A stretch of DNA of 64,000 nt from assembly GCA_910585915.1 (NCBI GenBank), contig CAJUGF010000001.1, positions 4,622 to 68,621 of the forward strand, given 5' to 3'. A program made the translations under genes and the position numbers. The number at the start of each line of letters is the position of its first letter. Position 1 is the stretch's first letter. The notes under the pieces were generated by a model. It saw only the letters and a list, made by a program, of their open reading frames with translations. It was not told the origin of the DNA and did not search any database. Source of the DNA: an uncultured Bacilli bacterium. Its GTDB lineage: Bacteria; Bacillota_I; Bacilli_A; RF39; UBA660. Shown here in pieces: positions 4,101 to 62,831 of this stretch.

Positions 4101-5774
4101 GTGTTGAGTGTGAAAGAAAATATACGCATGTTTCAAGAGTGGTATCGTCTTTGTAAGCCAAATAAAGCTTATTGGTTTTTTCAGTTTGCTACAGTAATTG
4201 TTATTAGTATTTGTTTGGTTTGTGAATCGATGTATGTAGCTAAGGTTACTACTAGTTTGGCTGAGGGAAATATTAGAATGGCAATATTTTGCTTGACACT
4301 TGGACTTTTATTTGTTTTGTTGCGTCAATTTTCTTGGATACTTAATTATAAAAATATGTATCATTTGATTGGTGATATTTATAAACGCTTGGAAATGAAA
4401 ATATTTCACAAAATAATTCATGGTAAAGAGAAAAATTTTGAAGCAATATCGAAAGAAAAATTAATTAATATTTTTCATAGTGATGCTTATGAAACCGCTA
4501 AATTTAGTGATCATATCTGTTCTAGATTTCGTTATTTGCTTTCTACATTATTAACTTTGGGTTACGTTTGTACAGTTTCTCTTCCAATTGCATTTGTTAT
4601 TCTTTTGATTATTATGGTTAATTACAAAATTCTTAATTGGATTAATGGGCGTATTAGTTTAGCAACAAAAGAAACAAAAGAAGCTGTCGATGCAGAATTT
4701 GAAACATTTTCTGAAATAATTTTATCTAAAAATATGATTGATTCTTATGATTTAACAAAGAAGATGGAACGAGAATTTCGAAAGAAAAATGATAATTTTA
4801 TGGTTCTTCAACAAAAGAAGAATATGGCTACTTCTATGTTAGAAAATAACTTTTTTGGTTATTATAAAACTGTTATTTACGGTATTACTTTGCTTTTAAT
4901 ATATTTGTTATCTTCTGGCAATCTTTCTTTAACTGTATATTTAATTGTAGTGTCTTATTTGACAGATAGTATTACAAATAGTAAAGATTTTATGGGAATT
5001 TTAACGGAATTAAAAAATGCTTATGTTACTTGTAATCGAGTTAATATTATTTTGAATTTTGATGAAAAAGAGGAGTTCTCTTTTGGTAATATTAAAGTGA
5101 ATGATATTTTGGGAGAAATAGATTTTATGAATGTTTCAGTGAATGCTTCTGAGATATTTGATTTTGAAGTGAATGATTTAAAAAATGTAAGTTTCCATAT
5201 TTCTTCCAATCAAACTGTTTTATTTCATGGAGCAAGGAGTAGTGGAAAACGAACGATATTTTATTTGCTTCGTCGGGTGATTATGCCAATGGAAGGTGAG
5301 ATATACGTTGATAAATATAAAATACAAGATTATCAGGAAAAAGTATATCGTAGAAATGTAAATTATTTAACAACTAAACCATTTTTTTATCATGGTTCTA
5401 TTCTCAGTAATTTAAAGTTAGTTCAATCAAATAATGAAAAAATAATTGATAGTTTGAAGGAAGTGGAACTATATGATTATATTATGGGTCTTCCGATGGG
5501 ATTAAAGTCAGAGGCGAATGCTTTACCACCTCGTGAGCAATATTTATTGGGGTTGGCCAGACTTTTACTTATGAATAGTGAAATTCTAGTTTTATATGAA
5601 TTTCCTAATTATTTAAGCAGTAAAGATAAGATGTTTATTAAAAATATTTTAATGAATATGCATGGTAAAAAAACCATTCTAGTGTTTTCGGCTAATGTAG
5701 ATATTGCTGATATTGCCGATCAGGTTTATGAGGTTGAACGTGGACGAGTTAATCTACATACTAAAAGAAGTTAA
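4101..5774 (+). CDS. ABC exporter-like half transporter (TMD+NBD) with degenerate ATPase motifs; start ambiguous (GTG at 4101/4110 or ATG at 4128)
   Basis: N-terminal 6-TM exporter-type domain. C-terminal NBD-like region with Walker A GARSSGKRT (K-R instead of K-S/T), signature LPPREQ instead of LSGGQ, Walker B ILVLYE (D to Y), and the H-loop His missing (TILVFSANV). Confidence 0.6.
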   Translation: MLSVKENIRMFQEWYRLCKPNKAYWFFQFATVIVISICLVCESMYVAKVTTSLAEGNIRMAIFCLTLGLLFVLLRQFSWILNYKNMYHLIGDIYKRLEMKIFHKIIHGKEKNFEAISKEKLINIFHSDAYETAKFSDHICSRFRYLLSTLLTLGYVCTVSLPIAFVILLIIMVNYKILNWINGRISLATKETKEAVDAEFETFSEIILSKNMIDSYDLTKKMEREFRKKNDNFMVLQQKKNMATSMLENNFFGYYKTVIYGITLLLIYLLSSGNLSLTVYLIVVSYLTDSITNSKDFMGILTELKNAYVTCNRVNIILNFDEKEEFSFGNIKVNDILGEIDFMNVSVNASEIFDFEVNDLKNVSFHISSNQTVLFHGARSSGKRTIFYLLRRVIMPMEGEIYVDKYKIQDYQEKVYRRNVNYLTTKPFFYHGSILSNLKLVQSNNEKIIDSLKEVELYDYIMGLPMGLKSEANALPPREQYLLGLARLLLMNSEILVLYEFPNYLSSKDKMFIKNILMNMHGKKTILVFSANVDIADIADQVYEVERGRVNLHTKRS

Positions 5775-26098: not shown

Positions 26099-27004
26099 AT
26101 GAGTGACCAATTTAATGAAGCAGTAACGCAAAATATGGAAAAATCTTATGAGCGTGAGGATCAATTTTTTTTAGAATATTATAATTATTTAAAACAGTAT
26201 CCCACTGTTATTTCACGATTTCACCGACTTTGTCGAAATCTTTCAAGAGATTTAAGGATTATTTTAAAAGCTGAAATTTTGCCAACTCTTTCTTTTTATG
26301 ATCAACAGAAATACTATGATATGTTATCAGATTTTGATATGCGTATTTTGGACGAAGCTTTAGATTGTATTCGTGAAATTGCAACTTCAAAAGATTCACA
26401 AAAGGAATTAAGAAAATGGGCAAAACTTCCTTGGTTTGATATTCAAAATTATGATGATGAATATTATACTGTAACTTTTTTAGGGCATCAATATTCTTTT
26501 CAATCACTTCGATTTCTTTATGGTAGTGATGTAGAGAAAATTTGTGATTTTCATCGAATGGAACATTACTCTGTTCATGATGAAGTAGGGTATGATGCAT
26601 ATGCACCTGGAAATTTGGATTATGCTTGTCATTTTTCTAGTTATCATTTTGCATTGATGCATCCAAATCTTTATGCTATGACTAGTTTATGTCCTCATAC
26701 AGTAAATGATGGTGTCTGGTATCATAGTTATAATCTGTCTGGTAATGAAAAGACAGTGTATGATGTTGCGAATGGATTTATTATGGATTATGATTGTTTT
26801 CAAAAACTTTTGGAACCAATTAATTTGGATCAAACTTTAGGTGCAAGCATTTTAGAAAGAGAAAAGGAATTACTTCAGGCAGATAATTTTTTTTACCAGA
26901 TGTATGGCGATTATTGCCCATTAAAAGGGTTTGCTTTCCAAAATTTCGATCGAATGGAACAAGCTGAACAGGCAAAACTTTTAAAAAATATTTCCAGATT
27001 TTAA
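26099..27004 (+). CDS. Hypothetical protein (Cys/His/Tyr-rich, no TM)
   Basis: RBS GGGAGGA; no recognisable domain. It occupies the slot where murD is commonly found between mraY and ftsW. Confidence 0.45.
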   Translation: MSDQFNEAVTQNMEKSYEREDQFFLEYYNYLKQYPTVISRFHRLCRNLSRDLRIILKAEILPTLSFYDQQKYYDMLSDFDMRILDEALDCIREIATSKDSQKELRKWAKLPWFDIQNYDDEYYTVTFLGHQYSFQSLRFLYGSDVEKICDFHRMEHYSVHDEVGYDAYAPGNLDYACHFSSYHFALMHPNLYAMTSLCPHTVNDGVWYHSYNLSGNEKTVYDVANGFIMDYDCFQKLLEPINLDQTLGASILEREKELLQADNFFYQMYGDYCPLKGFAFQNFDRMEQAEQAKLLKNISRF

Positions 27005-27021: not shown

Positions 27022-27837
27022 ATGACGCAGTATTCTGTGCTACCAAAAAAATATCAATTTGACCTATTACCTCAAATTGATAGCTATTCTCATTGTCGTA
27101 TTTATGACAATGAACTTATTATTAAAGAATATGAATCATGTTGTTATAATTTGTCAGTGCTTGATCAAATTATTCATTTGGATTTGCCTGGATATTCTTT
27201 TGCAGAAAGAATTTATTGTAATGAGGATTTATCTAAATTTTATCTTGTTGGTCCATTTTATAAAGATTATTGTAGTATAAGCGATGCTAATTTTATTATA
27301 TCTGATAAGGTTAATGGATTAATTGTTATGAAAAAAATGTTACTTCATTTAAAAGAGGCACATAAAAAAGGTTTTAATCCTTATGATAATCATGGAGGAA
27401 ATTATATAGTAAATTCTTTTTTGAATGTTTTAGGAATTGACTGTGATTATTCTTGTTTTCGAAAGCAATTTACTTTTGTTATTGATTCTATTCCAGCATA
27501 TTTTGAAGATTTTTTTGATAATGATATGTTTATAGATTTTCAATTTTCATCTTATTATTTGAACCTATTTGATAAGTTTCAGATGTTAGATATGTTCTTT
27601 TATTATCTTCGATTTAATGAATTTAGAAGGTATAATATTTTTGGAATTGAGGTTTTGAATCAAATTAAACCTATTTTAAGAGATATTCCTTTACCCAATA
27701 ATGTTCAAAATTATTTACAAAAGTTATTTTGTGGAATGATACCAAATTTCGATGATTATTTTATTGAAGAACTTATTGATCCTTTGATTTGTTACTATGC
27801 TAATCAAAATGTGAGAAAGAGAAAAGGAGAAGAATAA
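27022..27837 (+). CDS. Hypothetical protein with possible protein-kinase-like (PKL) fold
   Basis: RBS GGGGAGGA. HLKEAHKKGFNPYDNHGGNYIVN resembles the catalytic-loop pattern of APH/Kdo/RIO-type kinases (H..D....N.hv). The following LGIDCDYS resembles the DFG-equivalent IDxD. Tentative. Confidence 0.35.
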   Translation: MTQYSVLPKKYQFDLLPQIDSYSHCRIYDNELIIKEYESCCYNLSVLDQIIHLDLPGYSFAERIYCNEDLSKFYLVGPFYKDYCSISDANFIISDKVNGLIVMKKMLLHLKEAHKKGFNPYDNHGGNYIVNSFLNVLGIDCDYSCFRKQFTFVIDSIPAYFEDFFDNDMFIDFQFSSYYLNLFDKFQMLDMFFYYLRFNEFRRYNIFGIEVLNQIKPILRDIPLPNNVQNYLQKLFCGMIPNFDDYFIEELIDPLICYYANQNVRKRKGEE

Positions 27838-28972: not shown

Positions 28973-29072
28973 CTATAGTTATAATGATTAGATTTTTATG
29001 AGTTTTTTGAAATTTTAGTGTTGCCAAACTAACTGTTCAATGTCATAATAATTTTCGAAGGTGATTTTTAAC

Positions 29073-32000
29073 ATGAAATTAACAAAGGAACAACAAAAAT
29101 TGTGGAATGTATATCATTATGCTTTTCCCTCTATAGATCAATTTTTAGATTTTTATAATCATGCTTTTAATGATTCGAAGCAAAATGTGAAGATAAGTTT
29201 TCAACAGTTGATGCAGCAGTATTTAAAAAAACATATGAATGTTGATTTAATGATGAATTATCTTAATCAGTTGAATATCAATTATAATTCTTCTAGTCAA
29301 GAAATTCGTATTAAATTACGTCCTTTTTATCAATTATTAGATCAATTGGATTATTGTTTAGCAATGGATGATGCAGCAGTATTAATTGAGTATCCTTTGT
29401 TTCAAACTTTATTTTCTAAACTTTTTGGTCAAAATAAAATAATAGCTGAGGATCAATTTCAAAAATTGGCGAATGATAGTATTTATTTTGAAATTTTATG
29501 TCGTGTTTATTTAGATTGTCATGATATTGAAGTAGATGAATCTTTAAATAATAAAGATGATAGAACTTTATCTAAGACAAAGATTTTGACTCATGAGGAG
29601 GAAATTGAATTAGCGAAAAGAATTGAAGCTGGTGATATAAAGGCTCAAGAAACTTTTATTTTAGCAAATCAACAATTAGTTAAGTATGTTGCAAAGAGTT
29701 ATATTGGAAATGGTCTTGAATTTGATGATTTGTTTCAAGAAGGAATCATAGGACTTATGACAGCTATTCAAAAGTTTGATTATCAAAAAGGTTATAAATT
29801 TTCTACTTATGCTGTTTGGTGGATTCGTCACGCAATATATCATGCTATAAGAAAGGCTAGAGCGATTCCAGTACCAACTTATCGCGAACAAGAATATAAT
29901 CATATTATGAAGGTGCATGCTCAACTGGTGAATGAGCTTCAACGGAAACCATCTTTAGATGAATGGGCAAATCATTTAGGAATGGAGAAAGAAAGCTTGC
30001 AAGAAATAGTCAACTCTATTCCTAATGTAGTATCATTCGAAAGCAAAGTATCGAGTGAAGATGATAAAGAACTTGGGGATTTTTATGAAGATTCAAAGGC
30101 ACGTTTTGAGGAAGATGTCGTTCAAAGACAATATGTTTCGGAAATATTAAAATTGAGTAAAGAAATATTAAGTGAAAAAGAATATCAAGTTTTATTACTT
30201 CGATTTGGATTAGCTGATGGAACCAGTTATACTTTAGAAGAAGTTGGAAGAAAATTTAATGTAACAAGAGAAAGAATTCGTCAAATTGAAGCTAAGGCAT
30301 TAATAAAATTGAAGCATAGTTTGAAATATGAAAAGAATAAAACATTACATTTAGCTGAGAATGAACCTAACTTAGAAGAAGTTGGAAAAAAATTTAATGT
30401 AACGAGAGAGAGAACTCGTCAAATTGAGAACGCTATGAATGAACCTAGCTTAGAAGAAGTTGGAAATAAATTTAATGTAACAAGTGAGAGAACTTGTCAA
30501 ATTGAGAACACTATGAATGAACCTAACTTAGAAGAAGCTGAGAAAAAAATTAATGTAACAAGAGAGAGAACTTGTCAAATTGAGAACGTTATGAATGAAC
30601 CTAACTTAGAAGAAGCTGGGAAAAAAATTAATGTAACAAGAGAGAGAACTTGTCAAATTGAGAACACTATGAATGAACCTAGTTTAGAAGCGAAAAAAAA
30701 ATATACAAAGTTTGATATTCATCTTCTTCATTCTTCCCTTTCTATATCTTTACTTGTGGATTTTATTAAACTTTTTCCAAAACATGATCAAAAACTGTAT
30801 TGCTGTTTGAGAGGAATTCAGTTGTCTCAAAAAGATATCGTTCCAATAGAAGATGATTCATTTAATGATAAACAAAAGAAATATATCACTATTATTGAAA
30901 ACGATCTGAAGGCTATGGCATGTGAATATTTTTATTATATTAAAAAACGAAAATGTGATAAGGAAGTTGCTTTAAAGCATCTTGCAAAAGTTATGGTAAT
31001 AAAATTTCTTCGTTTTCGATATCCTAATTCTACACTATCTATGATTATGGATGCAGTGAAAAAACTTCCGTTAGAACAACGTCAGGCTATATATCGAGTG
31101 CATGGTGAAGATTTGTGTTCTTATTTGTTAGGTGTAGGTGTCAGACAAAAAAAATCAAGTTTGTTAAATCTTGCCTATAAAGATATTGCTGCTATTTTAA
31201 ATGAACATGAAGTGGTTCATATCAAGACAAGAAGTAATACTTTGTTTTTACTTATGGAGAAATATCCAGAGATTTCTTTAGAACAATGGATTTTAAATAT
31301 ACAATCTTTGCCAAAAAAACAAAGAGAAATTATGCAGTATGTTCATGGAGAGAGCCTCGATCAGAATCGATCTTTTTCAAGTCAAGACAAAGTGAGGCAA
31401 TATGCTAACTATCAAAATGGACTTCGAAGTTTAGAACAATTGGCAAATGGAACTAGAAGAGTTATTACACTAAAGGAACAAAAGAAAAATATGCTGTTTT
31501 TACTTATGGAGAAATATCCAGAGATTTCTTTAGAACAATGGATTTTAAATATACAATCTTTGCCAAAAAAACAAAGAGAAATTATGCAGTATGTTCATGG
31601 AGAGAGCCTCGATCAGAATCGATCTTTTTCAAGTCAAGACAAAGTGAGGCAATATGCTAACTATCAAAATGGACTTCGAAGTTTAGAACAATTGGCAAAT
31701 GGAACTAGAAAAGTTATTACACCAAAAGAAAAATTGTTCAAAATATTGAAAGTTGATAATGTTCAGATTTTAAATGAAGCATTAGAGCAACTTGAACTTT
31801 TTGAAAGGGATGTATTTTATTCTGTACATGGACAAACATTTGAAGAGTATCATGAGATTTCTAATTTTCAAGAGTATGAAAGAGTGTTTGAAAAACTAAG
31901 TGGAATAATGTTAGAAATACAAAAAGGGAAAAAGGATACCTTACTATCTTTACTTATGAAGAAGTATCCTGATATTACGAAAAAGCACTGGCATGTTTTT

Positions 32001-33080
32001 ATTAATGCTTTATCACCCAAGCAAAAGGAAGTTATTTATGAGGTAAATGGTGTAGATCTTGATGAAAGTAATTGGATTTCTAGGAATTTACCTTCCAAAA
32101 TTTATGAACGTTATTATTATGCAATTCAAAATTTGGAAGCACTAGCACAAAAAGCCTTTAATAAAACGGAGGAAAGAGATAAAAACATTATTGATGTTTA
32201 TGGAACTGAAAGAGTACGTTTTATTTTTCAATTTTTGAATAAAGAAGAATTATCTGTCTTTTTGTATCGTCATGGTGCTGATTTGAATGAATGCAATGAA
32301 TTTCCAGAACATTTAAATCATTTAAGAAATATGTATATTTGTACTATTGAAAAAATGAAAAATTTGTTAGAAATTTATACTGATTTATTGCAAGAATTTT
32401 TAGATTGTGTAGGACTTGCTTCTTTTGAAGAGGCACAGCATTTTATTTCGCTTTTAAGCATTGAAGAACAAGCAATTATTTATCAGCGGAGAGGAGAAAA
32501 ATTAAATACATTAAATTCTTTTATCTATGGTAAATCATTTGCTTATTATAAACGGCAGTATGATGATGCAGTGCAACATTTAAAAAAATTAAAGAAAGAA
32601 GATAATCAAAGAAAAGAATATAATCAAAGAAAAGAAGAAATTATTAATAGAGAAATTTTAGAATCTCAAAAGAAAATATTACTTGATGCAAAATTAAGTC
32701 AATATCAACAAAGTCTTTATTGTGAGTTTTTCCAATTATATGGAACTTTGATAAATGAATATGATTTAATGCGTGTTATTAATAAATCTCTTCTTTCTTA
32801 TACTTCTAGTGAGGGACTTTCTGTTGAAGTGTCAAGTCATTTTAAAGTTGAGACAGCGGTTTTAGAAATGTTAGTTTGTCAATATCAAATGGTGCAGAGT
32901 CAAGAATTGTTTGAGGCAATTAATAGTATTTTAAGTGTAAACTTAGCAGAAAAGTATTCATTTGTTAAAAAGAATATTATGTCTCCAGTGATTTATGCAG
33001 TGTTTCAAAAATATGTTGATCAACAGTTAATTTTTGAGGGGCTTGAAAAACCAGTTATTAAAGCTTATCAGATGAATTAA
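29073..33080 (+). CDS. Giant sigma-70-family protein: N-terminal unknown domain + complete sigma regions 2-4 + tandem region-4 repeats + ~900-aa C-terminal extension
   Basis: Residues about 175-420 carry canonical sigma regions 2.1-2.4 (DLFQEGIIGLMTAIQKFDYQKGYKFSTYAVWWIRHAI), region 3 and region 4 (LLLRFGLADGTSYTLEEVGRKFNVTRERIRQIEAKALIKLK). After that come ~4.3 in-frame 26-aa repeats (about four copies) re-copying the 4.2 helix, then multiple LPxxQRxxxxxxHGEDL-type modules. Confidence 0.8.
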   Translation: MKLTKEQQKLWNVYHYAFPSIDQFLDFYNHAFNDSKQNVKISFQQLMQQYLKKHMNVDLMMNYLNQLNINYNSSSQEIRIKLRPFYQLLDQLDYCLAMDDAAVLIEYPLFQTLFSKLFGQNKIIAEDQFQKLANDSIYFEILCRVYLDCHDIEVDESLNNKDDRTLSKTKILTHEEEIELAKRIEAGDIKAQETFILANQQLVKYVAKSYIGNGLEFDDLFQEGIIGLMTAIQKFDYQKGYKFSTYAVWWIRHAIYHAIRKARAIPVPTYREQEYNHIMKVHAQLVNELQRKPSLDEWANHLGMEKESLQEIVNSIPNVVSFESKVSSEDDKELGDFYEDSKARFEEDVVQRQYVSEILKLSKEILSEKEYQVLLLRFGLADGTSYTLEEVGRKFNVTRERIRQIEAKALIKLKHSLKYEKNKTLHLAENEPNLEEVGKKFNVTRERTRQIENAMNEPSLEEVGNKFNVTSERTCQIENTMNEPNLEEAEKKINVTRERTCQIENVMNEPNLEEAGKKINVTRERTCQIENTMNEPSLEAKKKYTKFDIHLLHSSLSISLLVDFIKLFPKHDQKLYCCLRGIQLSQKDIVPIEDDSFNDKQKKYITIIENDLKAMACEYFYYIKKRKCDKEVALKHLAKVMVIKFLRFRYPNSTLSMIMDAVKKLPLEQRQAIYRVHGEDLCSYLLGVGVRQKKSSLLNLAYKDIAAILNEHEVVHIKTRSNTLFLLMEKYPEISLEQWILNIQSLPKKQREIMQYVHGESLDQNRSFSSQDKVRQYANYQNGLRSLEQLANGTRRVITLKEQKKNMLFLLMEKYPEISLEQWILNIQSLPKKQREIMQYVHGESLDQNRSFSSQDKVRQYANYQNGLRSLEQLANGTRKVITPKEKLFKILKVDNVQILNEALEQLELFERDVFYSVHGQTFEEYHEISNFQEYERVFEKLSGIMLEIQKGKKDTLLSLLMKKYPDITKKHWHVFINALSPKQKEVIYEVNGVDLDESNWISRNLPSKIYERYYYAIQNLEALAQKAFNKTEERDKNIIDVYGTERVRFIFQFLNKEELSVFLYRHGADLNECNEFPEHLNHLRNMYICTIEKMKNLLEIYTDLLQEFLDCVGLASFEEAQHFISLLSIEEQAIIYQRRGEKLNTLNSFIYGKSFAYYKRQYDDAVQHLKKLKKEDNQRKEYNQRKEEIINREILESQKKILLDAKLSQYQQSLYCEFFQLYGTLINEYDLMRVINKSLLSYTSSEGLSVEVSSHFKVETAVLEMLVCQYQMVQSQELFEAINSILSVNLAEKYSFVKKNIMSPVIYAVFQKYVDQQLIFEGLEKPVIKAYQMN
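30358..30695 (+). repeat. In-frame tandem repeat, 78-bp unit x ~4.3, inside the giant sigma gene
   Basis: ATGAATGAACCTA(A/G)(C/T)TTAGAAGAAG ... recurs at 30435, 30513, 30591 and 30669, with a partial first copy at about 30358. It encodes NEP(N/S)LEE(V/A)GKK(F/I)NVTRERT(R/C)QIEN.M, a fragment of the region-4.2 HTH. Confidence 0.9.
31240..31745 (+). repeat. Near-perfect 252-bp tandem duplication (2 copies) inside the giant sigma gene
   Basis: A block of about 200 identical bases (AAATATCCAGAGATTTCTTTAGAACAATGG ... GGCAAATGGAACTAGAA) occurs at about 31257 and again at about 31509. It encodes LLMEKYPEISLEQWILNIQSLPKKQREIMQYVHGESLDQNRSF ... twice. Confidence 0.9.
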
Positions 33081-33201: not shown

Positions 33202-33390
33202 GTGGCTGATAAGAATATAACTTGTAAGATGTGTGGACAAGAATTTACTTTTACTGTTGGAGAACAAGAATGGTATTCAGAGCGTAATTTGAATGAACCA
33301 AAGTATTGTAAGACTTGTCGTGCAGAAAGAAGAAAACAAAAAGAAAAACAAAATAATATTCATAATGATTCGGTAAAGAAAGCTGCATAG
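33202..33390 (+). CDS. Small zinc-ribbon protein (zf-trcl-like, CxxC ... CxxC)
   Basis: RBS GAAGGAGG then GTG. CKMCGQEFTFTVGEQEWY ... CKTCR matches the probable zinc-ribbon small-protein family. Confidence 0.6.
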   Translation: MADKNITCKMCGQEFTFTVGEQEWYSERNLNEPKYCKTCRAERRKQKEKQNNIHNDSVKKAA

Positions 33391-39448: not shown

Positions 39449-40384
39449 ATGGCCGTAGTTTCTATGAGTAATCTTTTAGAAGCTGGAGTTCATTTTGGAC
39501 ATCAAACAAAAAGATGGAATCCAAAGATGAAACCTTATATCTTTGCAGCAAGAGAAGATATTTATATAATTGACTTGCAAAAGACAGCTGAAAAGCTTGA
39601 AGAAGCTTATCCAGTAGTGAAAACCATTGCTGAAAATGGTGGTACTTTTCTTTTTGTAGGTACTAAAAAACAAGCGAGTGAAGTAGCCAAAGAAGAAGCT
39701 TTAAGAAGTAATTCATTTTATGTTACTGAAAGATGGCTTGGTGGAACACTTACAAATTTCCGTACTATTCGTAGACGTGTAAAACGTTTAGAAGAAATTG
39801 AAGCAATGGAGAAAAATGGTACATTTGAAGTGTTACCAAAAAAAGAAGTTATTGGACTTAAGAAAGAATATGAAAAGTTAAATCGTTTACTTTCAGGTAT
39901 TCGTGGCATGGTTAAGATACCACAAGCTATGATTATTGTAGATCCTAAGAAGGAAATTAATGCAATTCGTGAAGCACGTAAACTTAATATTCCAGTATTT
40001 GGTTTAGTAGATACCAATTGTGATCCTGATGACGTTGATTATGTAATTCCTGGTAATGATGATGCAGTTCGTTCTGTTAAAGTTGTTTTAGGAGTTTTAA
40101 ATAATGCTATTTGTGAAGCCAATCATTTAGAAATGGTTGATTATGTTACAGAAGAGGATAAGAAAAAAGTAAAAGAAGTGAAGGATGAAGTAAAAACTTC
40201 TGATGTTATGGGGACTGCTTTGCAAGAAGAAAAGAAGGAAGTAAAGGAAGTAGCAAAAGAAGATAACAATGAAGATCTTTCTAAAAAAACTTTGACTGAG
40301 CTAAAAGCTATGGCGAAAGAAGCAAATGTTAAAGGGTATAGTACTATGAAAAAGGATGAACTTATTGCATCTTTAACAAAATAA
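39449..40384 (+). CDS. rpsB: 30S ribosomal protein S2 with Lys/Glu-rich C-terminal extension
   Basis: [32 protein letters not shown]; RBS AAAGGAGG; about 60 extra residues ([14 protein letters not shown] ...) relative to typical S2. Confidence 0.95.
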
Positions 40385-60622: not shown

Positions 60623-60717
60623 TGTTCCTTGTTCTAATTCAACATAGGCTTTTCCTTAAAGTTTAAGTAAGGATTTATGTTTTTTTTATGAAAGGCTGAG
60701 TGATAGGTGAAGTATTT

Positions 60718-61521
60718 ATGATGATTAAAAATGTGGAGTTAACCAGTGATATTCAAAGGGATTATGTACAAATGGTACATAAAATTCCGAAACTTACTGT
60801 CAAGGAAGAAAAATCTTTATTTGAGGGATATTATAATAGTAAAGATTCTCATCTTAAAGATGAAAATTCAATGTTGGAATTTAGTTATGAAGGAAAATCT
60901 TTTCATTTTGATAAAAATGATATTTCATCTTATGAATTTATGGCAGTATGTAAAGAAATTTTGAAACCTTCTTACTATCTTGTTTTATATTATCGTTATT
61001 TTTGTCTTGATCCAAAGTCTTTAAGTTTTATTGCTCATATGTTTTTTTCAACAAGACAGAATATTTCGGTTTTAATTGAGCGTGCTTTTTATGTGTTGAA
61101 ACCTTATTTAAATTGTTCAAAGGAGTATTTAAGAGTCCTTGAATGCTTAATGTCTAAGGAAGGGGATAATTTTAAATATTTGAATGTGCATCCGATTGAT
61201 CCAAAGGATATTGTTCGGTTTTGGTATGCATATCCTTATTTGAATTTGAAAGAACGAGAAGTTTTAAGAGAACACTTGCTTGGAAAGTATGATGTGTTAA
61301 CTTTTCCACTTTATCAATTGCTTGAAATGTCTAAAAAAGAATATAGTGTATGTTTGAATTCTTTACAAGAAAAGTTGGAAGTAATATTTTCTGATTATCA
61401 AAAATATTATAAGCAAGAAGAGTTATGTATTCGTGCATACAAAACAAAGATTTATAATATGGATTTGAATAGTAAGTTTTGTTTTTTTGATGATGATATT
61501 AAACGACGTTTAACTATATAA
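60718..61521 (+). CDS. Sigma-factor-like protein lacking region 2 (paralog of the C-terminal part of the next gene)
   Basis: Region-1.2-like N-terminus (DYVQMVHKIPKLTVKEEKSLFEGY), a region-4-like HTH (STRQNISVLIERAFYVLK), and a shared C-terminal module (DIVRFWYAYPYLNLKEREVLREHLLGKYD). No region 2 core. Confidence 0.55.
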   Translation: MMIKNVELTSDIQRDYVQMVHKIPKLTVKEEKSLFEGYYNSKDSHLKDENSMLEFSYEGKSFHFDKNDISSYEFMAVCKEILKPSYYLVLYYRYFCLDPKSLSFIAHMFFSTRQNISVLIERAFYVLKPYLNCSKEYLRVLECLMSKEGDNFKYLNVHPIDPKDIVRFWYAYPYLNLKEREVLREHLLGKYDVLTFPLYQLLEMSKKEYSVCLNSLQEKLEVIFSDYQKYYKQEELCIRAYKTKIYNMDLNSKFCFFDDDIKRRLTI

Positions 61522-61601: not shown

Positions 61602-62831
61602 ATGGTTTCTAATAATAGCATGTTTTCTTTTTCTAATTTAGAAACTGATTATTTAACGATGATACACGGTATTCCGCTTCTTTCTTCTAATCAACTACTT
61701 GCATTGTTTTCTGAATATAAAAGTACATTAAATGAAGATATTTTGAAGCAAATTGTGGAGCATAACTTGCGATTAGTACCTGGAATCGCGAAATTGTATT
61801 TGAATAAATGTAATCATTTGAAATTCATGGATCTTATTCAAGAGGGAAATTATGGTCTTATGAAAGCAGCACGATCCTTTGATCCAAATTATGGTACTGC
61901 TTTTTCCACATTTGCTACTTCTTATATTCATGGATATATTAAGAATGCAATTGCAATGCAAGAGCGTTTGATTAAAGAAGATCCACGCTTTGTTAGTCAA
62001 TTGATGCGATATCAAAAACTAAAAAGGAAATATCAAAATTGTGAAGAGGAAGCACCTTCTGATGAAGAATTATGTTCTATATTAGGTGTTTCTTTTGATA
62101 CTTTACGATTGTTTGAAGAAGTTAATGTTAGAAAAATTACAAGTCTTGATGCCAAACTTAAAGAAGATGCTGATGATTGTTTGCTTGATGTCATTTCAAG
62201 TGCGGAAGATGTGTCTACTGAGATGGTTGATAATTATATGGATCAAGAAATTATGGTTTTATGTAAATGGCTTTTAAAATCTGTTTCATATTTTGTGTTA
62301 TATTATCAATATTTTTCGAAGAAAGTAATACTTTTAAGTGATCTTGGAAATCTTATGGGGAGTAGACGTCAGAATGCTTCTCAATATCTTAAAAAAGCAA
62401 TTCAACAACTAAAACCTTATTTTACGTCTTCTTCACTTTATTCTGAAACTTTACAAGCTATTAAAACGAGGGAAGGTAAGAATTATAGTTTTTTATCTTT
62501 GAAACCAATTTCTCCTCAAGATATTACTAAATATCTTTATGCTTATCCTTTTTTGATGCCTATAGAACAGAAAGTGCTTTATTGGGAATTGTTTGGAAAG
62601 TATGAAAGAGAATGTCCTTTTGTTTATGATTTACTTTGTATGAGTAAAGGTGAATATTATTCAACTTTGTCTTCTTTACAGTTTAGATTAAAAGAAATAT
62701 TCCAGAATTATAAAATGTATAAAGACTATGAAAAACAATGTATTGAAACTCATAAAGCGAAAATTTATAAACTTGATTTGCATTATGAGTTAGTAGATAA
62801 TAAGCTTGTTAAATCTTTTAATTCAAAGTAA
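61602..62831 (+). CDS. Atypical sigma-70-family factor with ~150-aa C-terminal extension
   Basis: RBS GAGGTGGGGGG. Region 2 (LRLVPGIAKLYLNKCNHLKFMDLIQEGNYGLMKAARSFDPNYGTAFSTFATSYIHGYI). Region-4-like HTH (SRRQNASQYLKKAIQQLK). The C-terminal module (DITKYLYAYPFLMPIEQKVLYWELFGKYE) is shared with the 60718 protein. Confidence 0.7.
   Translation: MVSNNSMFSFSNLETDYLTMIHGIPLLSSNQLLALFSEYKSTLNEDILKQIVEHNLRLVPGIAKLYLNKCNHLKFMDLIQEGNYGLMKAARSFDPNYGTAFSTFATSYIHGYIKNAIAMQERLIKEDPRFVSQLMRYQKLKRKYQNCEEEAPSDEELCSILGVSFDTLRLFEEVNVRKITSLDAKLKEDADDCLLDVISSAEDVSTEMVDNYMDQEIMVLCKWLLKSVSYFVLYYQYFSKKVILLSDLGNLMGSRRQNASQYLKKAIQQLKPYFTSSSLYSETLQAIKTREGKNYSFLSLKPISPQDITKYLYAYPFLMPIEQKVLYWELFGKYERECPFVYDLLCMSKGEYYSTLSSLQFRLKEIFQNYKMYKDYEKQCIETHKAKIYKLDLHYELVDNKLVKSFNSK

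What the first reader, a model, noticed from the sequence alone, without database searches (positions are those of the whole stretch)
29073..33080. Giant (1336-aa) sigma-70-family protein embedded in the division/cell-wall cluster between ftsW and murG
Residues about 175-420 form an apparently intact sigma core (regions 2.1-2.4, 3 and 4). Before it sits about 170 aa of unknown sequence. After it sits about 900 aa containing at least six degenerate copies of a region-4-like module (LP.EQRQAIYRVHGEDL, LPKKQREIMQYVHGESL twice, LSPKQKEVIYEVNGVDL, LNKEELSVFLYRHGADL, LSIEEQAIIYQRRGEKL). Ordinary sigma factors are 180-400 aa, and I know of no described family with a polymerised region-4 tail. The gene lies where no regulator is expected (ftsW-X-zinc ribbon-murG). 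This suggests a sigma-like regulator, or an auto-inhibited or decoy sigma, coupled to envelope synthesis. It is the strongest candidate for something undescribed in this window.
Basis: partly seen in the sequence, partly recalled or inferred. Interest (0 to 1): 0.9.

Follow-up and report, generated by a model that had tools for sequence, protein, structure and literature searches.

The report
Giant sigma factor with sigma-4 repeats
A real 1,335-residue gene in an uncultured gut bacterium encodes an RNA-polymerase sigma factor whose long tail is built from at least seven degenerate copies of the sigma factor's own promoter-binding domain; hundreds of metagenomic proteins share these repeat modules, but neither the family databases nor the papers I searched describe them.

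Summary
ORF 29073..33080 (+) is one intact gene for a 1,335-aa protein. It has a family-specific N-terminal domain, a complete RpoD-type sigma core (regions 1.2, 2, 3 and 4), four extra 26-aa copies of the region-4.2 helix-turn-helix, seven or eight ~72-aa modules, a 68-residue helix and a conserved C-terminal domain.

The core evolves 3-6 times faster than the neighbouring ftsW, murG and murB. It is therefore probably an alternative sigma, not the housekeeping one.

The dcw position is specific to this clade. Six more distant relatives sit directly after a Flp/Tad pilus operon and before ruvAB. The module profile finds 419 protein clusters, some with up to 19 modules and some with no sigma core.

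My best reading is an alternative sigma factor whose region-4-derived tail is a protein-interaction or regulatory appendage, not a promoter reader. I found no description of this architecture. I rate it a new variant of a known kind; its mechanism is unknown.

The parts
29021..29049 (+). Promoter-like site TTGCCA-17-CATAAT with TG extension, upstream of the gene
   Evidence: Consensus scan and sequence. Equivalent TTGnnn-17-TATAAT sites, mostly preceded by a terminator hairpin, lie upstream of the orthologues in L002, L003, L084 and L085. Function is inferred, not shown.
29057..29064 (+). Shine-Dalgarno-like AAGGTGA, 8 nt before the ATG at 29073
   Evidence: Read directly from the sequence.
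29073..33080 (+). Coding sequence of the 1,335-aa giant sigma-70-family protein (stop codon included)
   Evidence: ORF list. An identical protein is recorded from MAG GCA_949518705.1. Full-length homologues are P0003, P0004 and P0124-P0128.
29073..29546 (+). Family-specific N-terminal all-alpha domain (aa 1-158) where region 1.1 would be; acidic, pI 5.1
29568..29636 (+). Sigma region 1.2, C-terminal half only (aa 166-188)
   Evidence: Pfam PF00140 at 30.4 bits, profile positions 10-32 of 34. The DPVRMYLKEIG half present in P0008-P0013 is missing in the window clade.
29658..29861 (+). Sigma region 2 (aa 196-263)
   Evidence: Pfam PF04542 at 79.5 bits. FSTYAVWWIRHAIYH keeps the aromatic melting residues, but the following 2.4 positions differ from the canonical WWIRQAITR.
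29895..30116 (+). Sigma region 3 (aa 275-348)
   Evidence: Pfam PF04539 at 56.3 bits.
30168..30317 (+). Sigma region 4 (aa 366-415) with canonical VTRERIRQIEAKAL recognition helix
   Evidence: Pfam PF04545 best stretch 366-415; sequence.
30359..30690 (+). Tandem array of 78-bp units (4.3 copies) encoding 26-aa copies of the region-4.2 helix-turn-helix (NEPNLEEVGKKFNVTRERTRQIEN)
   Evidence: TRF reports 92% matches. Pfam counts 4 r4 stretches. The sigma-core HMM hits positions 215-236 four more times. A second assembly (P0002) lacks exactly one unit, aa 491-516. The array is absent from P0003-P0013.
30693..30983 (+). Linker domain, possibly a degenerate eighth module (aa 541-637; contains LFPKHDQKLYCCLRGIQL)
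   Evidence: Weak module-HMM match, E 0.005 against a 3-sequence set. Conserved in P0003-P0006 and P0009. It also matches the C-terminal half of the 413-aa sigma of L088.
30984..31202 (+). Sigma-4-derived module M1 (aa 638-710)
   Evidence: Iterated HMM, domain E 6e-17. Pfam Sigma70_r4_2 gives a sub-threshold hit at aa 657-679.
31227..31448 (+). Module M2 (aa 719-792)
   Evidence: Domain E 2e-23. Part of the 252-bp tandem duplication 31243-31730.
31479..31700 (+). Module M3 (aa 803-876), near-identical duplicate of M2
   Evidence: Domain E 3e-23. The duplicated unit aa 724-807 is absent from P0002.
31710..31913 (+).
   Evidence: Domain E 4.5e-15.
31929..32150 (+). Module M5 (aa 953-1026)
   Evidence: Domain E 3e-23. 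In the model it forms four helices, pLDDT about 80-93.
32163..32372 (+). Module M6 (aa 1031-1100)
   Evidence: Domain E 1.5e-18; modelled.
32376..32597 (+). Module M7 (aa 1102-1175)
   Evidence: Domain E 9e-22; modelled.
32538..32741 (+). Single 68-residue helix (aa 1156-1223), charged; candidate coiled coil or stalk
   Evidence: AlphaFold model helix 204-271, pLDDT 92-98.
32679..33077 (+). Conserved C-terminal helical domain (aa 1203-1335)
   Evidence: Aligned in 11 homologues. CTD HMM 146 bits; present in 29 of the 160 proteins scanned. pLDDT about 85-97, except the last ~15 residues. No Pfam hit.

Best explanation
The gene encodes a functional, non-housekeeping, RpoD-type (group 1/2-like) sigma factor of an uncultured low-G+C gut member of the Bacilli.

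Core. Its regions 1.2-4 should bind core RNA polymerase. They should read promoters with a TTGACA-like -35 element and a somewhat altered -10 element.

N terminus. A family-specific acidic helical domain replaces region 1.1.

Tail. After region 4 the protein continues for about 900 residues. These residues arose by repeated tandem duplication of region 4. The youngest copies are four bare helix-turn-helix units. The older copies are seven or eight ~72-aa four-helix modules. They keep the sigma-4 fold but have lost the arginine/glutamine DNA-reading residues. The modules are strung like beads on a flexible chain. The chain ends in a long helix and a conserved helical domain.

Proposed mechanism (inferred, not shown). 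The tail does not read promoters. It is a protein-interaction and regulatory appendage. It could be a stalk of variable length that presents the conserved C-terminal domain. It could equally be a multivalent set of sigma-4 look-alikes that bind, or compete for, partners that normally dock on sigma-4, such as anti-sigma-type proteins or the beta-flap. Either way it would control when or where this sigma is active.

History. The family's ancestral genomic partner is the Flp/Tad pilus operon. In the window's clade the gene has moved into the dcw cluster.
For: Shown:
- The sigma core is complete and above Pfam cut-offs, and its best NCBIfam hits are RpoD models.
- The modules are real repeats.
- Their N-terminal half aligns to region 4.1 (hhalign probability 80%, E 1.5e-5).
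- In poly-repeat relatives, module-HMM positions 13-73 and sigma-core-HMM positions ~185-245 (region 4) fall on the same residues.
- Pfam gives summed Sigma70_r4 / r4_2 scores above cut-off on core-less module arrays.
- The model of M5-M7 plus the C-terminal domain has pLDDT 87.7 but pTM 0.47, meaning confident domains with loose arrangement.
- It is one gene. P0003 (42% identical, 100% coverage), P0004 and P0124-P0128 keep the order NTD, core, modules, CTD.
- NTD, core, modules and CTD all have dN/dS of 0.27-0.33.

Not housekeeping:
- Among three lineages whose FtsW is 91-93% and MurG 81-90% identical, the sigma core is only 55-61% identical.
- dN/dS is 0.29 for the core against 0.055-0.11 for the neighbours.
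- Region 2.4 differs even among these three lineages.
- The RpoD equivalog score is 293 against a cut-off of 572.
- No dnaG lies nearby.

The tail is unlikely to read DNA:
- The last helix of the modules is Y/N-rich (Y.NY..AI.NL) instead of RER.RQIE.
- Module pI ranges from 4.9 to 9.9.

Modular and tunable:
- Homologues carry 2 to 19 modules.
- One 84-aa module and one 26-aa unit differ between two assemblies that are otherwise 100% identical.
- Core-less 18-module proteins exist.

Tad linkage.
Against: - No experiment or expression data exist, and no partner has been identified.
- No interaction of the tail with anything was tested; both structure-prediction jobs went on single domains.
- Foldseek on the whole tail model gave no match at E <= 0.001.
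- Pfam does not call region 4 in the window's own modules (best r4_2 19.2 bits against a cut-off of 25.7).
- dS is near saturation (0.7-1.5), so the dN/dS values are approximate.
- I could not inspect the rest of the MAG. The presence of a separate canonical sigA is therefore inferred, not seen.
- The Tad adjacency is separated by a terminator-like hairpin and an own promoter. It may reflect conserved synteny and not function.
- The window itself holds no Tad genes.
Confidence: 0.5

Rival explanations
1. It is the primary (housekeeping) sigma factor of this reduced-genome lineage, which has acquired a lineage-specific N-terminal domain and C-terminal tail.
For: - The best family hits are RpoD models, and the architecture runs from region 1.2 to region 4.
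- The -35-reading helix is canonical.
- The gene has its own sigmaA-type promoter, conserved in relatives.
- The only other sigma-like gene in the 64 kb (61602-62831) is still more divergent.
- In relatives P0008-P0013 the core is almost canonical SigA, including a full region 1.2 and the C-terminal RHPSRSK-like motif (core HMM 416 bits against 268 for the window protein).
Against: - The core evolves 3-6 times faster than FtsW, MurG, MurB, DivIB and QueH in the same three genomes. That is the opposite of what established knowledge of primary sigmas predicts.
- Region 2.4 varies among close relatives, and half of region 1.2 is lost.
- The RpoD equivalog score is half the cut-off.
- The gene is never next to dnaG in 10 contexts.
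Confidence: 0.15
2. The tail modules are still DNA-binding helix-turn-helix domains. The protein would be a sigma factor with a built-in array of DNA readers that binds repeated upstream sites or coats DNA.
For: - The fold matches sigma-4, including sigmaE region 4 bound to -35 DNA.
- Several modules are basic: M1 pI 9.9, M3 9.1, M5 8.9; the tail overall is 8.5.
- The four 26-aa units keep the TRER.RQIE reading residues.
- Relatives have arrays of better-preserved region-4 repeats.
Against: - The module 'recognition' helix has lost the conserved Arg/Gln pattern.
- M4, M6 and the C-terminal domain are acidic.
- The 26-aa units lack the rest of the domain, are confined to one species, and vary in copy number.
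- No repeated DNA motif was sought or found near the gene.
Confidence: 0.15
3. It is a component of a conflict or defence system (like the sigma-containing MZA system), or otherwise under arms-race pressure. That would explain the fast evolution and the repeat polymorphism.
For: - MzaA is among the NCBIfam and PADLOC hits.
- dN/dS is several-fold above the neighbours.
- Repeat copy number is strain-level polymorphic.
- The adjacent lineage-specific ORFs are also fast evolving (unk271 dN/dS 0.38).
Against: - The MzaA match covers only the sigma core (model positions 411-660 of 683; 241 bits against a cut-off of 800).
- No other defence-gene hit occurs in the neighbours.
- The gene sits among core housekeeping genes in conserved synteny.
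- dN/dS is well below 1 in every segment.
Confidence: 0.07
4. It is an assembly, frameshift or gene-fusion artefact, or a decaying pseudogene whose tail is junk.
For: - The source is a short-read MAG.
- Two internal tandem repeats (92% and 98% identical) are the kind of sequence that assemblers miscount.
- Copy number differs between two assemblies.
Against: - The same NTD-core-modules-CTD order, 975-1,447 aa long, recurs in independent assemblies and species.
- The tail has the same dN/dS as the core.
- The domains fold with high confidence.
- Only the repeat copy numbers, not the gene, are open to assembly error.
Confidence: 0.02

Closest known systems
Group 1/2 sigma-70 factors (RpoD/SigA and primary-like sigmas such as RpoS, mycobacterial SigB and cyanobacterial group 2)
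   Same: - Regions 1.2, 2, 3 and 4 in the usual order.
- Canonical region 4.2 recognition helix.
- Aromatic melting residues of region 2.3.
- Best profile hits are RpoD models.
   Different: - Scores are about half the equivalog cut-offs.
- Region 1.1 is replaced by an unrelated 158-aa domain with no PDB match.
- About 900 residues follow region 4, where these sigmas end.
- It evolves much faster than neighbouring housekeeping genes.
ECF sigma factors with fused C-terminal regulatory extensions (ECF41, ECF42 and related groups; PMC3426412, PMC7826278)
   Same: - A sigma factor with a large domain fused after region 4.
- No obvious anti-sigma gene.
- In ECF41 the extension is crucial for sigma activity and is described as a fused regulatory domain (PMC3426412, abstract).
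- This is the best precedent for a tail that regulates its own sigma.
   Different: - Those are group 4 sigmas without region 3.
- Their extensions are SnoaL-like, TPR, Cys-rich or transmembrane (PMC7826278), and mostly far shorter.
- Here the core is RpoD-type with region 3, and the extension is a polymer of region-4-derived modules.
MzaA, the sigma-70-family protein of the MZA anti-phage system (NCBIfam NF041931, PADLOC PDLC02203)
   Same: A long protein (about 700 aa) containing an RpoD-like core. It is the highest-ranking NCBIfam hit whose model describes a long multi-domain sigma, not a plain RpoD-type one.
   Different: - Only the core matches.
- In MzaA the extra domain is N-terminal.
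- The score is 241 against a cut-off of 800.
- No Mza partner genes lie nearby.
FliA (sigma-28) and FlgM, the checkpoint for an envelope-spanning appendage
   Same: Analogy only. A sigma factor is genomically tied to the genes of a surface filament machine, and control acts through region 4: FlgM wraps sigma-28 including region 4 (established knowledge; 1sc5 and 1rp3 appear among the weak Foldseek hits).
   Different: - The FliA/WhiG family score is below cut-off (120 against 189.6).
- No FlgM-like gene was seen.
- The machine is a Tad pilus, not a flagellum.
- No functional link has been shown.
Stand-alone sigma-4-like proteins (YlxM/UPF0122, PDB 1xsv)
   Different: Those are single-domain proteins. 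Here 7-19 copies are strung in tandem, with or without a sigma core.

Membership tests
Sigma-70 family (Pfam regions 2, 3, 4; NCBIfam TIGR02937 superfamily) | Region 2 (core binding, -10 recognition) above the curated cut-off | tested here: met
   PF04542 at 79.5 bits against 24, aa 196-263. TIGR02937 at 112 bits against 42.9.
Sigma-70 family (Pfam regions 2, 3, 4; NCBIfam TIGR02937 superfamily) | Region 4 (helix-turn-helix for the -35 element) above the curated cut-off | tested here: met
   PF04545 at 112.3 bits against 24.1, best stretch aa 366-415; VTRERIRQIEAKAL present.
Sigma-70 family (Pfam regions 2, 3, 4; NCBIfam TIGR02937 superfamily) | Binds core RNA polymerase and directs promoter-specific initiation | not testable with these tools
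   Needs biochemistry. Only the conservation of the relevant regions is shown.
Groups 1-2 (RpoD-like) as opposed to groups 3-4 | Regions 1.2 and 3 present | tested here: met
   PF00140 at 30.4 bits against 22, though only profile positions 10-32. PF04539 at 56.3 bits against 25.3.
Primary sigma RpoD/SigA (NCBIfam equivalogs PRK09210, TIGR02393) | Score at or above the equivalog cut-off | tested here: not met
   PRK09210 at 293 against 572. TIGR02393 at 253 against 354.
Primary sigma RpoD/SigA (NCBIfam equivalogs PRK09210, TIGR02393) | Region 1.1 at the N terminus | tested here: not met
Primary sigma RpoD/SigA (NCBIfam equivalogs PRK09210, TIGR02393) | Housekeeping-level sequence constraint (a core more conserved than typical cell-wall enzymes) | tested here: not met
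   Core 55-61% identical where FtsW is 91-93% and MurG 81-90%. dN/dS 0.29 against 0.055-0.11.
Primary sigma RpoD/SigA (NCBIfam equivalogs PRK09210, TIGR02393) | It is the only RpoD-like gene, or is essential, in the genome; the usual Bacillota linkage is dnaG-sigA | tested here: inconclusive
   No dnaG next to it in 10 contexts. The rest of the MAG could not be searched.
ECF sigma factors (group 4), including those with C-terminal extensions | Only regions 2 and 4; no region 3 or 1.2 | tested here: not met
   Regions 1.2 and 3 are present.
MzaA (MZA anti-phage system) | Full-length match above cut-off, including the N-terminal MzaA domain, with Mza partner genes nearby | tested here: not met
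   241 bits against 800; only model positions 472-708 (NCBIfam) or 411-660 (PADLOC) match. The neighbours have no PADLOC hits.
FliA/WhiG (TIGR02479) | Score at or above the subfamily cut-off | tested here: not met
   120.2 against 189.6.
Sigma region-4 domain, applied to the tail modules | Pfam Sigma70_r4 or r4_2 above the gathering score on the window's own modules | tested here: not met
   Best is r4_2 at 19.2 bits against 25.7, aa 657-679, profile positions 3-25 only.
Sigma region-4 domain, applied to the tail modules | Homology detectable by profile-profile comparison and through intermediate sequences | tested here: met
   hhalign probability 80%, E 1.5e-5 over 26 columns (region 4.1). 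The iterated module HMM picks up the true region 4 of P0007 and P0011. Module and region-4 HMMs coincide on the same residues in P0159, P0161 and P0139. Pfam r4 and r4_2 sum to 48-112 bits on module arrays.
Sigma region-4 domain, applied to the tail modules | Sigma-4 three-dimensional fold | tested here: met
Sigma region-4 domain, applied to the tail modules | Reads -35 DNA through conserved Arg/Glu/Gln of the recognition helix | tested here: not met
   The module consensus for the last helix is Y.NY..AI.NL, with no RER.RQ pattern. Binding itself is not testable here.

The most novel reading that the evidence does not exclude
These proteins would define a new class of sigma factor in which polymerised, DNA-blind sigma-4 domains act as a built-in, copy-number-tunable decoy or docking array, in cis or as separate poly-module proteins. 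The array would couple sigma activity to the assembly state of a Tad/Flp pilus machine, a FlgM/FliA-like checkpoint for pili. In the window's clade it would have been rewired to the division and cell-wall machinery.

Alternatively, and equally unexpected, this 1,335-aa protein is the only primary sigma of the lineage.
Probability: 0.12. Interest if true: 0.85.

Novelty: new variant of a known kind. Interest (0 to 1): 0.62.

Why it matters
Sigma factors are among the best-studied bacterial proteins. Extensions after region 4 are described mainly for ECF sigmas and use unrelated domains. None of the papers I found describes one built by polymerising region 4 itself.

Here a sizeable family does exactly that. 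The module profile finds 419 clusters at 50% identity, with up to 19 modules and up to 1,862 aa. Copy number changes even between near-identical strains.

If the modules act as sigma-4 mimics, this would be a new way of regulating or localising RNA polymerase. The conserved position next to Tad pilus genes gives a concrete place to look for the partner.

The work also flags two confidently folded domains (N- and C-terminal) with no Pfam or NCBIfam match. The N-terminal domain also has no meaningful match among solved structures.

The practical limits are that the hosts are uncultured gut Bacilli and that nothing about function has been measured.

Tried and rejected
1. GTDB scan with the N-terminal-domain alignment. 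A four-sequence alignment without the core produced poor patterns and no confirmed locus. The family's distribution among named genomes therefore remains unknown.

The nearest matches are only 67% ('uncultured Bacilli bacterium', a Hadza gut MAG) and 63% ('uncultured Tenericutes' UMGS1372). The species itself is not in that collection.

3. The search for homologous proteins with the N-terminal-domain profile returned only two fragments. It was uninformative.

4. One contig look-up was wasted on a start codon that was one codon off.

5. The afdb50 fold library was unavailable, so no UniProt names or organisms could be obtained for the N-terminal domain.

6. Foldseek against PDB with the whole 383-residue tail model gave nothing at E <= 0.001. 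The multi-domain model is too loosely arranged for a global method.

7. The module HMM found no significant module in the window's second sigma-like protein or its neighbour.

8. PADLOC, PHROGs and Rfam gave nothing beyond the sigma core.

9. Four literature searches found no description of the architecture. The library lacks most subscription journals, so absence is weak evidence.

10. I compared promoters upstream of flp and of the sigma genes to look for a non-canonical motif. Both are ordinary TTGAC(T/A)-17-TATA(A/T)T types, so this gave no handle on the regulon.

11. I rejected 'coupled to the dcw cluster' as a family property, and I rejected the artefact reading.

Full report
**1. The observation**

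The ORF at 29073..33080 (+) is open for 1,335 codons plus a stop, in DNA of about 29% G+C. It has a Shine-Dalgarno-like AAGGTGA 8 nt before the ATG. A TTGCCA-17-(TG)tCATAAT promoter-like site lies at 29021-29049.

Pfam places Sigma70 region 1.2 at aa 166-188, region 2 at 196-263, region 3 at 275-348 and region 4 at 366-415. All are above their curated cut-offs. NCBIfam ranks RpoD models first, but at about half their equivalog cut-offs: PRK09210 scores 293 against 572.

The window comes from contig CATDNY010000001.1 of MAG GCA_949518705.1. EF-Ts is at best 67% identical to 'uncultured Bacilli' and 63% to 'uncultured Tenericutes' gut MAGs. The host is thus an uncultured, poorly represented gut lineage of Bacilli.

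**2. Anatomy of the rest of the protein**

- **26-aa repeats.** Directly after region 4 there are 4.3 tandem 78-bp units at 30359-30690 (92% matches). Pfam counts them as extra region-4 stretches.
- **Modules.** A linker follows at about aa 541-637; it may be a very degenerate module. Then come seven ~72-aa modules at aa 638-710, 719-792, 803-876, 880-947, 953-1026, 1031-1100 and 1102-1175. M2 and M3 are a 252-bp tandem duplication, 98% identical.
- **C-terminal end.** The AlphaFold model of aa 953-1335 has mean pLDDT 87.7 but pTM only 0.47. The domains are confident and their mutual arrangement is loose. Each module is four helices. They are followed by a single 68-residue helix (aa 1156-1223) and a helical C-terminal domain. 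That domain is conserved in the family.
- **Location.** No membrane-spanning segment is predicted.

**3. Are the modules really region-4 derivatives?**

Four lines of evidence agree.

- A profile of 53 modules aligns to a region-4 profile over 26 columns covering region 4.1 (hhalign probability 80%, E 1.5e-5). The iterated module HMM also picks up the genuine region 4 of two family members.
- The module profile was searched against 1.84 billion representatives. Many hits are arrays in which the module HMM (positions 13-73) and the region-4 part of a sigma-core HMM (positions ~185-245) fall on the same residues, repeat after repeat. These sequences bridge true region 4 and the window's more degenerate modules.
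- Pfam gives summed Sigma70_r4 / r4_2 scores of 48-112 bits on such arrays, even where no region 2 is present.

**4. Not an artefact**

P0003 (42% identical, full coverage), P0004, P0005, P0006 and P0124-P0128 keep the order N-terminal domain, core, modules, C-terminal domain, at 975-1,447 aa. An independent ENA assembly (P0002) is 100% identical over 1,225 aligned residues. It lacks exactly one 26-aa unit (aa 491-516) and one 84-aa module (aa 724-807). This is either true copy-number polymorphism or a miscount by the assembler. Only the copy numbers are uncertain.

I compared the window with locus L002 using Nei-Gojobori dN/dS. The values are 0.33 for the N-terminal domain, 0.29 for the core, 0.27 for modules M5-M7 and 0.31 for the C-terminal domain. 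Every part is under purifying selection, to a similar degree. dS is near saturation, so the values are approximate.

**5. Housekeeping or alternative?**

Three lineages share the dcw arrangement. Between them FtsW is 91-93% identical, MurG 81-90%, MurB 66-87%, and DivIB and QueH 71-82%. The sigma core is only 55-61% identical. The neighbours have dN/dS of 0.055-0.11.

Primary sigma cores are normally among the most conserved bacterial proteins (established knowledge). The 3-6-fold faster rate argues for a non-essential, alternative sigma. Several other facts point the same way:
- region 2.4 varies among these three lineages (RHAIYH, HQAVSR, HASIRQ against the canonical RQAITR);
- the first half of region 1.2 is lost;
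- no dnaG lies nearby in any of the contexts.

I could not search the rest of the MAG, so a separate sigA is inferred, not seen. In more distant relatives (P0008-P0013) the core is close to canonical SigA. I keep 'primary sigma' as a rival at about 0.15.

**6. Genomic context**

The ftsW-X-zinc-ribbon-murG-murB-divIB-queH position is shared by the window, P0003 and P0004.

Six other members (P0007, P0009, P0012, P0013, P0124 and P0127) all lie immediately after a Flp/Tad pilus operon: flp, tadE, an unknown gene, a CpaE-like ATPase, tadA, tadB and tadC. They lie before ruvA-ruvB-queA-tgt.

In a seventh locus, from a spore-former, tadC is followed by an 18-module protein without regions 2 or 3, then a 1,090-aa sigma, then an FtsW/SpoVE gene and spoIIP.

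The ancestral address is therefore the Tad locus, and the dcw address is a derived feature of one clade. In the window's species, the site syntenic with Tad-sigma-ruvAB lies between glyS and tgt. It now holds another divergent sigma-like gene and hisS. The 64-kb window has no Tad genes.

A terminator-like hairpin and a TTGnnn-17-TATAAT promoter precede most of the giant sigma genes. The flp promoter is a conserved TTGACT-17-TATATT. The sigma is thus not obviously co-transcribed with the pilus genes, and neither promoter is unusual. The linkage is conserved, but its meaning is unproven.

**7. How it most likely works**

- **Shown:** an intact RpoD-type core; a tail of sigma-4-derived, loosely connected helical modules of highly variable number; a conserved distal domain; purifying selection on all parts; cytoplasmic location.
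- **Inferred:** the core acts as a sigma with a TTGACA-like -35 preference and a modified -10 preference. The tail does not read promoters. It serves as a protein-interaction or regulatory appendage. It could be a length-variable stalk presenting the C-terminal domain. It could equally be a multivalent set of sigma-4 look-alikes for partners that dock on sigma-4.

Two observations make an appendage with its own function more likely than a mere linker. Core-less poly-module proteins exist beside a long sigma. ECF sigmas offer a precedent for fused C-terminal domains that regulate their own sigma (PMC3426412, PMC7826278).

I put about 0.85 on the structural description. I put about 0.75 on 'alternative, not primary'. 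I put only about 0.35 on the specific protein-interaction mechanism. The overall figure is 0.5.

**8. Comparison with what is known, and novelty**

The protein is a member of the sigma-70 family and resembles groups 1-2. It fails the RpoD, FliA and MzaA membership tests, and it is not an ECF sigma. The N-terminal domain, the modules and the C-terminal domain have no model in Pfam, NCBIfam, PADLOC or PHROGs. Four full-text searches found no description.

The module family is not small. There are 419 clusters at E <= 0.001, 205 at E <= 1e-10, up to 19 modules and up to 1,862 aa. Of the 160 proteins I scanned, 20 have the full window-type architecture and 44 are module-only, some of which may be fragments.

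I rate it a new variant of a known kind, with interest 0.62. The architecture would surprise a transcription specialist and gives a testable lead through the Tad linkage. The hosts are uncultured, and no functional evidence exists.

Noticed in passing
window 61602-62831 (+): A second, still more divergent RpoD/RpoS-like sigma gene (409 aa). Only region 2 reaches the Pfam cut-off, and the WW of region 2.3 is replaced (FSTFATSYIHGY). It carries a ~120-aa C-terminal extension in which the module HMM finds nothing significant. It lies at the site that is syntenic with the Tad-giant sigma-ruvAB locus of relatives (glyS ... tgt).
   Followed up: partly
window 60700-61521 (+): A 273-aa ORF with no family hit is a paralogue of the C-terminal half of the adjacent 409-aa sigma-like protein (42% identity over 179 aa). 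It is in effect a sigma fragment without region 2.
   Followed up: partly
window 26099-27004 and 27022-27837 (+): Two ORFs (301 and 271 aa) with no Pfam, NCBIfam, PADLOC or PHROGs hit lie between mraY and ftsW, where murD usually lies. They are conserved only in the three dcw-type loci. The 271-aa one evolves fast (dN/dS 0.38, 37-58% identity). They are candidate partners of the sigma.
   Followed up: partly
window 33202-33390 (+): A 62-aa zinc-ribbon protein (PF13451 zf_Tbcl, CxxC...CxxC) with its own GGAGG ribosome-binding site follows the sigma gene in all three dcw-type loci (64-76% identical). It is absent from the Tad-type loci. Whether it is a partner or anti-sigma-like factor is unknown.
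   Followed up: no
window 30359-30690 and 31243-31730: Two in-frame tandem duplications inside the gene (78 bp x 4.3 and 252 bp x 1.9). A second assembly with an otherwise identical protein has one unit fewer of each. This is either strain-level copy-number variation or repeat collapse by the assembler.
   Followed up: partly
L088 6316-7557: In one relative, a 413-aa sigma sits between tadC and the 1,406-aa giant sigma. Its C-terminal half matches the linker plus first module of the window protein (31% over 147 aa), so it looks like a short version of the giant.
   Followed up: partly
L089 10001-18096: In a spore-former locus (spoIIP nearby), tadC is followed by a 1,607-aa protein made of 18 modules with no sigma regions 2 or 3, then a 1,090-aa sigma with its own modules, then an FtsW/RodA/SpoVE gene. 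The module array can evidently exist in trans.
   Followed up: partly
L003 ~4990-5094, L084 ~4990-5094, L086 ~1095-1198, L088 ~1210-1315: The flp (pilin) genes of four divergent lineages share a nearly identical promoter and leader: ATTTGACTTTA...N...TATATT..ATGATAGTAGGTG. Such conservation of the leader suggests regulation beyond the promoter hexamers.
   Followed up: no
window 39449-40384 (+): The ribosomal protein S2 gene product (311 aa) carries a Rho_N (PF07498) hit in addition to Ribosomal_S2, according to the precomputed annotation of the contig. That is an unusual extension for S2.
   Followed up: no
window 1-64000: No Rfam family reaches its gathering score anywhere in the 64 kb, so there is no annotated riboswitch, leader or small RNA. 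Upstream of the dcw genes lies a capsule-type cluster (Wzz, tyrosine-kinase-like ParA ATPase, VanZ, LytR-CpsA-Psr).
   Followed up: no
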